Of a stretch of DNA of 64,000 nt, positions 6,441 to 64,000 are shown piece after piece. The stretch lies in NCBI RefSeq assembly GCF_009914755.1, contig NC_060926.1; one strand, 5' to 3'. The DNA is from the human T2T-CHM13v2.0 reference genome, Homo sapiens. Both the position numbers and the translations under genes were made by a program. Under the pieces are notes generated by a model, which saw nothing but the letters and a program-made list of their open reading frames with translations, was not told where the DNA came from and searched no databases. Within the stretch, counting starts at the first letter, position 1. The number at the start of each line of letters is the position of its first letter.

Positions 6441-7001
6441 TGCTCCCCAAATTTCAGCAACTCATGTGTCACCATGCACCCCATTTACTTGATATTTTTC
6501 TTCTGATCAACTTGAAATCACTCACTTTTAAACTTCAGCTTGTCTTAAGCCATGATATTCATAAAATAATGGATTTAATGTGCAAGTAACACTTTTTCCA
6601 GATCTCATTAAAAGTTTCCTGGCCACAGAGCCCCTCTTGAGGGAGGTGAGGGAGAACTGGAAGGAGGAAATATGTAGATGGAAAGGAGAGGAGTTAGCAG
6701 AAAGCACCAGTAAAATAGAAGTAGGCTGTATATGAGTGAGTGGACAGCTCATTTGTTTCCCAGGACTGCAGTAACAAATGCCCACCAACTGAGTGGCTAA
6801 CAACAACAGCAATTTACTCTGTCTCAGCTATGGAGGCTCCAAGTGCAAGATCGAGGTGGGGGCAGGGTCATGGTCCCACTGAAACTTGCAGGGGCGGGTC
6901 CTTCCTTGCCTCCTCCTGAATCTGGTGGTTGCCTGCAATTCCTGGCACTCTTTGGAGGGGCTGAGTCACTCCAATCTCTGCCTCTGTCTCCATACCACAT
7001 T

Positions 7002-7104: not shown

Positions 7105-7406
7105 ATTTATTTATTTATTTATTTATTTATAGAGACGTGGTCTTGCTCTGTGGCCCAGGCTAGAGGGCAGCAGTGTGATCACGACTCACTGCAGCTCCAG
7201 CTGGGCTCCAGCAATCCTCCTGCCTCAGCCTCCCCAGTAGCTGGGATTATACGCATGTGCCACCAGCTAATTTTTTAATTTTTAAAATTGTTTTAGAGAT
7301 GGAGTCTTGCTATGTTTCCCAGGCTGGTCTCACATTCTTGACCTCAAGCAAGCCTCCCACCTCAGCCTCCCAAGTTGCTGGGGTTGCAGGTATGAGCTAC
7401 CTGGCC
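7105..7406 (-). mobile_element. AluJ
   Basis: (TTTA)n tail, ctcactgcagc and caatcctcctgcctcagcctcc J-type features. Confidence 0.9.
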
Positions 7407-60028: not shown

Positions 60029-62454
60029 TGTATTAGTCCACTCTCACATTGCTGTAAAGAAATGCCTGAGACTGAGTAATTTGTAAAGAAAAGAGATTTA
60101 ATTGGCTCACAGTTCTACAGGCTATACAAGAAGCATGGCTAGGGAGGCCTCAGGAAACTTACTCATGACAGAAGACAAAGCCAGAGCAGGTATCTTCACA
60201 TAGCCAGAGCAGGAGGAAGAGAGAGAGGGGGAAGGTGCTACACACTTTTAAACAACCAGATCTTGTGATAACTTACTCTTACTATGGCAATACCAAGGGG
60301 GCTGGTGTTAAGCCATAAGAAACCACCCCCATGATCCAATCACCTCCCACCAGGTCCCACCTCCAACACTAGGGATTACAGTTCAACATAAGATTTGGGT
60401 GGGGACACATATCCAAACCATATCATTCTGACCCTGGCTCCTCCCCAAATCTCATGTCCTTCTCACATTGCAAAATACAATCATGCCTTCCCTACAGTCC
60501 CTCAAAGTCTTTTAACTCATTTCAGCATTAACTCAAAAGTTTAAAGTCCAAAGTCTCATCTGAGACAAAGCAAGTCCTTTCTACCTATGAGCCTGTAAAA
60601 TAAAAAAGAAGTTAGTTACTTCCAAGACACAATGGCGGTATAAGCATTGGGTAAATATACCCTTTCCAAAAGGGAGAAATCAGCCAAAAGAAAGGGGCTA
60701 CAGGCCCCATGCAAGTCCAAAACCCAGCAGGGTAGTCATTAAACCTTAAAGCTCCAAAATATTATCCTTTGGCTCCATGTCCCACATCCAGAATATGCTG
60801 GTGCAAGGGGTGGGCTCCCAAAGCCATGGGCAGCTTGGCCACTGTGACTTTGCAAGGTTCAACCCCCACAGCTGCTCTCATGGACTGGCATTGAGTGCCT
60901 ACGGCTCTTCCAGGCACAGGGTGCAAGCTGCTTGTGGCTCTACCATTCTGGGGTCTGGAGAATGGTGGCCCTCTTCTCACAGCACTACTACGTAGTGCCC
61001 TAAAGAGGACTCTGTGTGGGGGGTCCAACCCTACATTTCCCCTCTGCACTGCTCTAGTAGAGGATCTCCATGAGGGCTCCAACCCTGTAGCATGCTTCTG
61101 CCTGGACATCCAGGTTTTTCCATACATTCTCTGAAATCTAGGTGGAGGCTTCTAAGCCTCAACTTTTAAACTATGTGCACCCACAGGCTTAACACCTCGT
61201 GAAAGTCATCAAGGCTTATGGCTTGCACCCACTGGAACAGCATCCAGAGCTGTACCTTGGGCCCTCTTGGCCACAGCTGGAGCTGTAGCAGCTGGGATGC
61301 AGGAAACAGTGTCCCAAAGCTGTGCAGGGGAGTAGAGACCCTGGTTCTGGCCCCTGAAACTATTCTTCCCTCCTGGGCCTCTGGGCCTATGATGGGACGG
61401 GCTGCCATGAAGCTCTCTGAAATGACTTCAGGGCCTTTTTCCCATTGTCTTGGCTATTAGTACTTGCCTTCTTTTTAGTTATGTAAATTTCTGCAACCTG
61501 CATGAATTCCTCCCCCTGAAAATGGGTTTTTCTTTTCTACCACATGGCCAGGCTGCAAGTTTCCAAACTTCTATGCTCTGCTTCCCTTTTAAATGTAAGT
61601 TCCAATTTCAGATCATTTCTTTGTTCATGCAAATAAGCATAGGTTATTAGAAACAGCCAGGCTACATCTTGAATGCTTTGCTGCTTAGAAATTTCTTCTG
61701 CCAGATACCCTAAATCATGACTCTCAAGTTCAAAGTTCCACAGATCCCTAAAGCAGGGGCACAATGCAGCCAACCTCTTGCTAATGCGTAACAAAAGTGA
61801 CCTTGCTCCAGTTTCCAATAAGTCCCTCATTTCCAACTGAGACTTCATCAGCCTAGACTTTACTCTTCATATCACTACCAGCATTTTGGTCATAACAATT
61901 TAACAAGTCTCTAGAAAGTTCCAAATTTTCCTTCATCTTCCCTTCTTCTTCTGAGTCCTCCAAACTCCTCCAACCTCTGCCCATTACCCAGTTCTAAAGC
62001 TGCTTCCACATTTTCAGTATCATTATGGTAATACCCCACTCTTGGTACCTATTTTCTGTATTAGTTTATTCTCACATTGCTATAAGGAAATGCCTGAGAC
62101 TGGGTAATTTATAAAGAACATAGGTTTAATTGGCTCACAGTTTTACAGGCTGTACAGGAAGCATGGCTGGGGAGTCCTCAGGAAACTTTTACTCATGGCA
62201 GAATGCAAAGCCAGAGCAGGCATCTTCACATGACCAGAGCAGGAGGAAGAGAGACAGAGGGACATGCTACACGCTTTTAAACAACCAGATCTTGTGATAA
62301 CTTACTGTCACTGTGACAACACCAAGGGGGATGTTGTTAAAGCATAAGAAACTGCCCCCATGATCCAATCACCTCCCACCAGGCCCCACCTCCAGCATTG
62401 GGGATTATAATTTGGTGTGAGATTTGAGTGGGGACACAGATCCAAATCATATAA
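60029..62454 (-). mobile_element. Full-length MSTA MaLR provirus: LTR 60029-60425, internal 60426-62056, LTR 62057-62454
   Basis: Two homologous ~397-bp LTRs; MaLR-int ORF relics (RDLWNFELESHDLGYLAEEISKQQSIQ); 5-bp TSD gtccc at 60024-60028 and 62455-62459. Confidence 0.95.
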
Positions 62455-62459
62455 GTCCC

Positions 62460-62740
62460 TCCCCTGACCATCTCCCTAAGTTCCTCTCCCTACTTCCAGA
62501 GCTAAAATGACACCCTGCCTACCTCTGGACCAACTGTAATGCCCTACCCACTTACCTGGCTTCTTTTCCGTCATAACAGGTATTCACTAACTGATGTTTT
62601 TGTCTTTTCCCTCACTAGCATGTCAACTGCACCAGGCCGACTTACATTTGTTCTCTTCCCCACTGAGCCTTGAATGATTCCTGGCACAGGGAATAGGCCC
62701 ACTAAATAAGGGTTGAGTGAACAAATGAATGGATGAAGAA
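62460..62740. mobile_element. L2 3' fragment
   Basis: cctggcacagggaataggcccactaaataagggttgagtgaacaaatgaatg. Confidence 0.7.
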
Positions 62741-62889
62741 ATGACTTCTTATATCATTTACGAAAATTACAAACTCGGCACGTCAGAGCTGGAGGTGATA
62801 TTTTCAAAAATTATTACCACGGAACCCTGTGTTCAGATGAAAGTTTATTCACACCATTTTTTAAATGCCCCAGATTAAAATGGCTCTCT

Positions 62890-63315
62890 TTGGCTTTATT
62901 CATACTAGCCAAAACCTGGAAACAGCTCAGATATCCATCAATAGAAGAATGGATCAACAAGCTGTGGTATATGCACACAACGGAATACTACTCAGCAACA
63001 GAAACGAATGACTTATAAAACTTGCTAAATATGAAAAACATTAGGCTGAAACAAAGAAGCCAGACAGAAAAGAGTGCATGATATCCCTTCTATTCATACT
63101 GCATTCTAGAAAAGATGAAACTAATCTAGGAGGTGTAAAAAAACAAAACAAAACAATGTTTGTCCCCGCGAGGTGGCTGGGGAAGGGATTAGACTGTGAA
63201 GGAGGAAGAAGGAACTTGTGGGGTGATGGATGAGTTCTGTATCTTGACAGAGGGGTGGGTGGTACTCATCAAATGGTGCACGTAAGAATTGTATATTTCA
63301 ATGTACCTAGAATTT
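62890..63315 (+). mobile_element. L1MC/ME 3' fragment
   Basis: gccaaaacctggaaacagctcagatatccatcaatagaagaatggat, aaagaagccagaca. Confidence 0.8.
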
Positions 63316-63784
63316 TCTTTTTATTTTTTGAAATTTGTTTTCTTTTATTTTACTTTTAGTTCTGGGGTACATGTGTAGTATTTGTAGGTTTGTTACATAG
63401 GTAAACGTGTGCCATGGCAGTTTGCTGCACCTATCAGCCAATCACCTACTTATTAAGCCTGACATGCATTAGCTATTTTCCTGATGCTCTCCCTCCCCTG
63501 AACCCCCACCTGCAGTGGCAGGCCTCAGTGTGTGTTGTTCCTCTCCCTGGTTCCATGTGTTCTCAGTCTTCAGCTCCCACTTATGAGTGAGAACATGTGG
63601 TGTTTGCTTTTCTGTTCCTGGGTTAGTTTTCTGAGGATAATGGCTTCCAGCTCCATCCATGTCCCTGCAACGGACATGATCTCGTTTCTTTCTACGGCTG
63701 CATAGTATTCCATGGTGTATATGTACCACATTTTCTTTATCCAGTCTATCACTGATGGCCATTTTGGTTGATTCTATGTCTTTG
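63316..63784 (-). mobile_element. 5'-truncated L1PA (~470 bp)
   Basis: T-rich tail; ORF2 C-terminus DWIKKMWYIYTMEYYAA...WMELEAIIL. Confidence 0.93.
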
Positions 63785-64000
63785 AACATTTGATTTTTTA
63801 AAAAGCCTTACCACATCCATTACAATTGTAAGGTTGCTCTCTAATATGAATACTCTGATGTTTCCATTTTGATGTTCAGGTAAAAGCCTTAGCATGCACA
63901 TTACATTTCTGTGGTTCCTCTCAAAGATGTATATTCTGCTGTCTAGTGAGTTCTGATGCCTGGGCAAAGCCTGACGGCAATGTATGTATAGTTTTCATCT
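63776..64000 (-). pseudogene. Degenerate C2H2 zinc-finger (KRAB-ZNF-type) sequence, truncated by the window end
   Basis: Manual minus-strand translation: FAQASELTRQQNIHL*EEPQKCNVHAKAFT*TSKWKHQSIHIREQPYNCNGCGKAF*, then frameshifted KSNVQRH; matches the HQRIHTGEKPYKCxxCGKAF repeat. Confidence 0.8.

What the first reader, a model, noticed from the sequence alone, without database searches (positions are those of the whole stretch)
63316..64000. Probable chimeric ZNF-L1 retrocopy joined at a 9-bp microhomology
Seen: on the minus strand, decayed C2H2 fingers (KHQSIHIREQPYNCNGCGKAF, KSNVQRH) run directly into the last ~470 bp of an L1PA and its A-tail in the same orientation. The junction CAAAGACAT (plus-strand 63776-63784) fits both the finger helix codons QRH and the L1 sequence. 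ZNF sequence does not resume beyond the L1 tail, which argues against a simple L1 insertion into a ZNF pseudogene. Established: L1 reverse transcriptase can switch templates to cellular RNAs (for example U6-L1 chimeras). Inference: a switch from L1 RNA to a KRAB-ZNF mRNA, or retrotransposition of a ZNF transcript that ends within an L1. The ORF track does not show the finger frame because of stop codons.
Basis: partly seen in the sequence, partly recalled or inferred. Interest (0 to 1): 0.7.

Follow-up and report, generated by a model that had tools for sequence, protein, structure and literature searches.

The report
Retrocopy of ZNF tail with L1
This is an ordinary, dead 660-base copy of the tail end of a chromosome 19 zinc-finger gene whose tail already contains the same L1 fragment, likely made from an mRNA that ended at that L1; it is not a template-switch chimera.

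Summary
Window 63343-63972 (-) aligns as one piece (84%, 632 columns) across both the finger part and the L1 part to chr19:55200666-55201274, about 750 bases downstream of a 21-finger ZNF reading frame (probably ZNF616). In that parent the L1 fragment has its own degenerate target-site duplication (TSD) and ZNF-type sequence resumes after it. The junction occurs at three places only: the parent, this window and its segmental-duplication twin. The chr2 insert (63318-63977) has an A-tail and a 19-base TSD (63299-63317 / 63978-63996) inside an old L1 3' UTR. The chr2 and parent L1s share 3-4 private substitutions. The '9-bp microhomology' is 2 bp (CA) and belongs to the older L1 insertion. Verdict: a 5'-truncated processed pseudogene of a transcript likely polyadenylated at an embedded L1, whose AATAAA the human parent now lacks. 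Side finding: two sister genes carry Alus of different subfamilies at the same homologous site.

The parts
63299..63317 (-). 3' copy of the chr2 target-site duplication (19 nt)
   Evidence: family D7, 15 of 19 identical to 63978-63996
63318..63329 (-). poly(A) remnant of the retrocopy
   Evidence: sequence
63329..63343 (-). A-rich stretch between AATAAA and the A-run; may be the parent's own 3' TSD carried along (inconclusive)
   Evidence: score 8.4, reached by 1 of 400 shuffles but also by 2 of 18 other L1 tails
63344..63349 (-). AATAAA at the L1 3' end; absent at the same place in the human parent
63344..63784 (-). 5'-truncated primate L1 3' end (end of ORF2 plus 3' UTR, about 440 nt), inherited from the chr19 parent; subfamily not typed against a library
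63783..63799 (-). copy of the parent's 5' TSD for the older L1 insertion (17 nt); its last two bases (63784-63783, CA) are the true ZNF/L1 microhomology
63785..63977 (-). decayed C2H2-finger sequence from the parent's 3' region; 5'-truncation point at about 63973-63977
   Evidence: 151 of 166 identical to chr19:55.201 Mb, 161 of 184 and 147 of 175 to the two sister genes
63978..63996 (-). 5' copy of the chr2 TSD, preceded by an AT/GAAA nick site
   Evidence: AT/GAAA is scored as an EN motif in a supplementary row of PMC13174262
62880..63317 (+). old, highly diverged L1 3' UTR that was the target; continues to the right of 63978, beyond the window end

Best explanation
The element is a 660-base, 5'-truncated copy of the 3' region of a chr19 zinc-finger gene that already carries the same L1 fragment, and it was likely reverse-transcribed by L1 machinery from an mRNA polyadenylated at that fragment's AATAAA. 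Step 1 (shown): a truncated L1 sits in sense orientation in the decayed-finger tail of the parent, with its own TSD and ZNF-type sequence on both sides. Step 2 (inferred): the L1's AATAAA served as a poly(A) signal for the gene. Step 3 (hallmarks shown, enzyme inferred): that RNA was copied by target-primed reverse transcription into an old L1 3' UTR on chr2, stopping about 190 bases past the L1, leaving an A-tail and a 19-base TSD. Step 4 (shown): the site was later duplicated in a segmental duplication (99.2% over at least 20 kb). Step 5 (shown): the human parent now lacks the AATAAA. Age about 30-50 million years (inferred from 86.5% identity and a recalled neutral rate). No function is expected.
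For: One continuous alignment over both parts to chr19:55200666-55201274. Parent L1 flanked by a degenerate TSD; the sequence after it is 300 of 360 and 141 of 181 identical to what follows the site in two sister genes. Junction pattern found at 3 places only, control 0. Private shared L1 substitutions: 3 (window) and 4 (twin) in 403 columns, at columns 81, 98, 241, 416; the window shares at most 1 with any of 28 other L1s, the parent at most 2, and 1 of 378 pairs among the 28 reaches 3 or more. Finger part closest to this parent (91.0% against 87.5% and 84.0%; 4 informative sites against 1). TSD score reached by 11 of 5000 shuffles and 111 of 5000 random window draws; both copies fall on the same columns of six old-L1 reference copies chosen with the right flank only.
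Against: No intron is spanned, so RNA origin rests on tail and TSD only. The chr2 L1 is no closer to the parent's L1 (84.7%) than to 28 other L1s (84.5-89.6%; these were picked as best matches). Identity falls from 91% (finger part) to 83% (last third of the L1), and the last third holds only one private shared site (finger versus L1 Fisher p 0.046, p 0.30 without CpG-prone and G-tract columns). The 5' TSD copy also loosely resembles the parent's upstream sequence (by eye in the alignment), so the 5' end is uncertain by about 20 bases. No other primate genome or transcript data could be examined.
Confidence: 0.92

Rival explanations
1. De novo chimera: reverse transcriptase started on a free L1 RNA and switched to a ZNF mRNA at the junction.
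For: Such mRNA/L1 chimeras exist (17 in hg38; bioRxiv 10.1101/2025.02.02.635956 section 24). The chr2 anatomy alone fits it.
Against: The identical junction is in the parent, with its own TSD and resumed ZNF sequence; shared private L1 substitutions; microhomology is 2 bp.
Confidence: 0.01
2. Mosaic: reverse transcription began on another L1 RNA and switched to the ZNF mRNA inside the shared L1 sequence, so the last part of the L1 and the tail come from a different element.
For: Identity to the parent drops to 112 of 135 in the last third; the parent lacks AATAAA and a long tail.
Against: A private shared substitution lies at column 416, near the 3' end; both lineages, not only chr2, are further from the majority state in that third (14 and 18 differences); the tail may hold the parent's 3' TSD (inconclusive).
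Confidence: 0.04
3. Same parent, but primed internally on the A-rich L1 tail of a longer mRNA or pre-mRNA, or captured as DNA, with no use of the L1 poly(A) signal.
For: No splice junction is included; the parent L1's ancestral tail length is unknown.
Against: AATAAA lies about 15 bases before a CA and an A-run, the usual cleavage geometry (geometry from established knowledge); TSD and EN-type nick argue against DNA capture.
Confidence: 0.03

Closest known systems
Processed pseudogenes (retrocopies) made by L1 in trans
   Same: Single parent transcript region, A-tail, flanking TSD (definition as in PMC5199112 introduction passage), 5' truncation.
   Different: Only the non-coding tail is copied, so there is no ORF and no exon junction; two thirds of it is an L1 fragment of the parent, so it looks like an L1 with extra 5' sequence.
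mRNA/LINE-1 chimeric insertions and 5' transductions (Law and Burns, PMC13174262 / bioRxiv 10.1101/2025.02.02.635956)
   Same: Gene-derived sequence directly 5' of an L1, same sense, inside one TSD pair.
   Different: Those mostly carry first exons, splice-site junctions and near-full-length L1s, and in the two examples described no source L1 was found in the gene. Here the piece is the gene's 3' tail, the L1 is 440 bases and the junction pre-exists in the gene.
U6/L1 chimeras (template switch or RtcB ligation; PMC4476161, PMC6789731, search listings only)
   Same: Two-part retroposed insert ending in an L1 3' end.
   Different: Two separate RNAs are joined in those; here one genomic locus holds both parts.

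Membership tests
processed pseudogene | colinear with one parent transcript region | tested here: met
processed pseudogene | 3' poly(A) tail absent from the parent | tested here: met
   A-run 63318-63329 where the parent continues with ZNF-type sequence
processed pseudogene | target-site duplication | tested here: met
   15 of 19 identical
processed pseudogene | L1 endonuclease-type nick site | tested here: met
   AT/GAAA; same site scored as EN motif in one row of PMC13174262 supplement
processed pseudogene | loss of introns | tested here: inconclusive
   insert is too short to reach an exon junction
processed pseudogene | parent transcript ends at this poly(A) site | not testable with these tools
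   no transcript data; human parent lacks the AATAAA
template-switch or ligation mRNA/L1 chimera | junction absent from the parent gene | tested here: not met
   junction present at chr19:55201088-55201119
template-switch or ligation mRNA/L1 chimera | L1 part unrelated by descent to any L1 in the parent | tested here: not met
   3-4 private shared substitutions
L1 insertion into a resident ZNF pseudogene | ZNF sequence resumes after the L1 on chr2 | tested here: not met
   flanks are an old L1 3' UTR

The most novel reading that the evidence does not exclude
The chr2 copy is a fossil of an extinct, L1-terminated isoform of the ZNF gene (cut at a CA just past the L1's TSD), and the L1 that created it sits at a nick that was hit three separate times in three sister genes (L1 fragment, AluY-type, AluS-type): an exact-site retroposition hotspot kept across paralogues in one genome.
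Probability: 0.4. Interest if true: 0.35.

Novelty: new member of a known kind. Interest (0 to 1): 0.15.

Why it matters
Little in itself: one more dead retrocopy, not listed in the supplied annotation. It is a clean false positive for screens of mRNA/L1 chimeras (check the parent for the junction first). It keeps an older state of the parent's tail (20 bases and the AATAAA that the human gene lacks), so it records a lost poly(A) option. The repeated insertions at one site in sister genes bear on retroposon site preference and on the use of such insertions as homoplasy-free markers.

Tried and rejected
Looked for more fingers or other ZNF exon sequence to the right: BLAST of 30 kb (window 61001-91000) against 70 kb of the three chr19 genes gave only the insert and repeat matches; a KRAB profile was not run. 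The best hit for the finger part alone by bit score (chr19:55.240 Mb) was rejected as parent: it has an Alu, not the L1, at the site and is less identical ungapped. Pfam scan of the full frames failed on stop codons; a 20-residue piece was scanned. nhmmer of the flanks against loci then held found only self and twin; a search with the 138-base left flank found only self and twin. Tail-equals-parent-TSD test was inconclusive, and 10 of 28 tails were dropped because the motif search missed them. Literature: 'ZNF616' gave 47 papers, 25 listed, none on a retrocopy by title or abstract start; four further searches listed nothing on this locus; the six readable supplements of PMC13174262 had no ZNF616/836/841 or MIR4435 entry and no match to '11136', my recalled-offset guess at the hg38 position ('8758'/'8759' hits were only partly shown, those shown lay elsewhere); mmc7.pdf could not be read. 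Earlier scan findings were not available.

Full report
Observation. On the minus strand the window end reads as decayed C2H2 fingers followed at once by an L1 3' end and an A-rich tail. KHQSIHIREQPYNCNGCGKAF is in one frame and KSNVQRH in another; the 20-residue piece hits Pfam zf-H2C2_2 at E 4.4e-5, below its cut-off. A genome search with the finger part gave 21 matches of 21 candidates: self, a 99% twin at chr2:87.6 Mb, 18 places on chr19 and one on chr18.

The parent already has the junction. BLAST of 30 kb around the window end against 70 kb from the three best chr19 regions gave one alignment covering both finger and L1 parts: window 63343-63972 to chr19:55200666-55201274, 531 of 632 columns. 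This lies about 750 bases downstream of the stop of a 656-codon frame with 21 C2H2 matches. The name ZNF616, with ZNF841 and ZNF836 as the neighbours, rests on my recall plus the gene order in a table row of PMC6685493 (passage seen); it was not checked against an annotation. In the parent the L1 is bounded by a degenerate duplication, and what follows it is 300 of 360 and 141 of 181 identical to what follows the same site in the two sister genes. So the L1 went into the chr19 gene first. A 32-letter junction pattern with up to 3 mismatches matches 3 places in the genome: parent, window, twin; the reversed control matches 0.

The microhomology is 2 bp. The sister genes show the host continuing TTCA then TG; most of 28 related L1 copies read AGCA then AAGAC. 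Only CA is common, and it belongs to the older insertion.

Descent of the L1 part. Overall identity does not separate the parent (360 of 425, 84.7%) from 28 other L1 copies (84.5-89.6%), which were 28 of the 38 non-self best matches and so biased upwards. Private substitutions do: outside the G-rich tract (403 columns) window and parent share 3 states seen in none of the 28, twin and parent share 4; the window shares 0 with 21 and 1 with 7 of the others; the parent shares 0, 1, 2 with 24, 2, 2; among 378 pairs of the others 330, 41, 6, 1 share 0, 1, 2, 5. The shared sites span the fragment (columns 81, 98, 241, 416). Against a simple reading, identity falls from 91.0% in the finger part to 89.4, 87.2 and 83.0% along the L1; the finger-versus-L1 difference has p 0.046, or 0.30 once CpG-prone and G-tract columns are left out. 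A switch inside the L1 is therefore unlikely but not excluded.

Hallmarks on chr2. A 19-base direct repeat, 15 of 19 identical, sits at 63299-63317 and 63978-63996; 11 of 5000 shuffles and 111 of 5000 random window draws (a few draws skipped) reach its score. Both flanks are old dispersed repeats. Six copies picked from the 12 non-self hits of the right flank gave a profile on which the left flank covers positions 142-192 and the right 184-317, and both repeat copies start in the same alignment column; two of the six carry an Alu over the upstream part and do not inform. That the target is an old L1 3' UTR is my reading of the sequence, not a library call. The insert is thus 63318-63977, 660 bases, wholly inside the window; nothing else from the three genes but repeats lies in the 27 kb to the right. 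The 5' repeat also resembles the parent's upstream bases loosely, so that end is uncertain by about 20 bases. The twin lies in a duplication 99.2% identical over the 20 kb fetched.

Mechanism. The copy ends at the L1's AATAAA (63349-63344), about 15 bases, a CA and an A-run; the human parent has no AATAAA there. The simplest account is an mRNA ending at the embedded L1, copied by L1 in trans and cut short. The 15 bases after AATAAA resemble the parent's 3' TSD (1 of 400 shuffles reach the score, but so do 2 of 18 other tails; 10 of 28 tails were not extracted): suggestive only. The chr2 copy keeps 20 bases that the parent lacks and that at least one sister gene has. Pooled identity 511 of 591 (86.5%) suggests 30-50 million years at a recalled neutral rate. 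The L1 subfamily was not typed.

Comparison. It meets the tested features of a processed pseudogene (PMC5199112, passages seen) and fails the defining one of a two-RNA chimera. In Law and Burns (preprint abstract and section 24; journal version passages and supplement searches) mRNA/L1 chimeras mostly carry first exons on near-full-length L1s; I found no entry for this locus, within the limits given under Tried and rejected. PMC4476161 and PMC6789731 were seen as search listings only.

Side finding. Both sister genes have an Alu at the same homologous site, with duplications of 16 and about 12 bases. In a tree of 49 Alus from these regions and the window they fall in different groups; at 5 columns that mark the younger group one has the young state at 4 and the other at 0, and they share 1 rare state, a common count among all pairs. 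The labels AluY-type and AluS-type are recalled. Against independence, the older Alu's best match among 48 is the younger one (87.4% against 86.0% for the next), and full Alu gene conversion is documented (PMC554112, passages seen). At least two, probably three, separate insertions hit one nick.

Verdict. Ordinary 5'-truncated retrocopy; new member of a known kind; interest 0.15.

Noticed in passing
L003:1208-1516 (chr19:55.240 Mb), L031 about 6570-6880 (chr19:55.151 Mb), L029:6660-7121 (chr19:55.201 Mb): Three adjacent paralogous ZNF genes each carry a retroposon at the same homologous A-rich site: a young-type Alu, an older-type Alu and the L1 fragment, with different TSD lengths. Parallel insertion or full Alu conversion.
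   Followed up: partly
L029:6660-6680: The parent's L1 has lost AATAAA and most of its tail; an ATTAAA lies about 370 bases further on, so the present transcript may read through the L1.
   Followed up: no
window 61643-64000 and beyond; L024-L025 (chr2:87.58-87.60 Mb): Inverted segmental duplication, 99.2% over the 20 kb fetched; in the L1 part the two copies differ at 4 columns, and the twin matches the parent at 3 of them.
   Followed up: partly
L021 about 7150-7350 (about 4 kb right of the window end): G+C- and CpG-rich stretch that looks like a promoter or CpG island (by eye).
   Followed up: no
L009:1500-1612 (chr18:9.951 Mb): Decayed finger-like sequence on chr18, 76% to the window's finger part, followed by what looks like L1 sequence at a different junction; possibly another ZNF retrocopy.
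   Followed up: no
window about 62040-62460: Dispersed repeat with matches in all three chr19 regions; looks like an old LTR of the MaLR kind (recalled, not typed).
   Followed up: no
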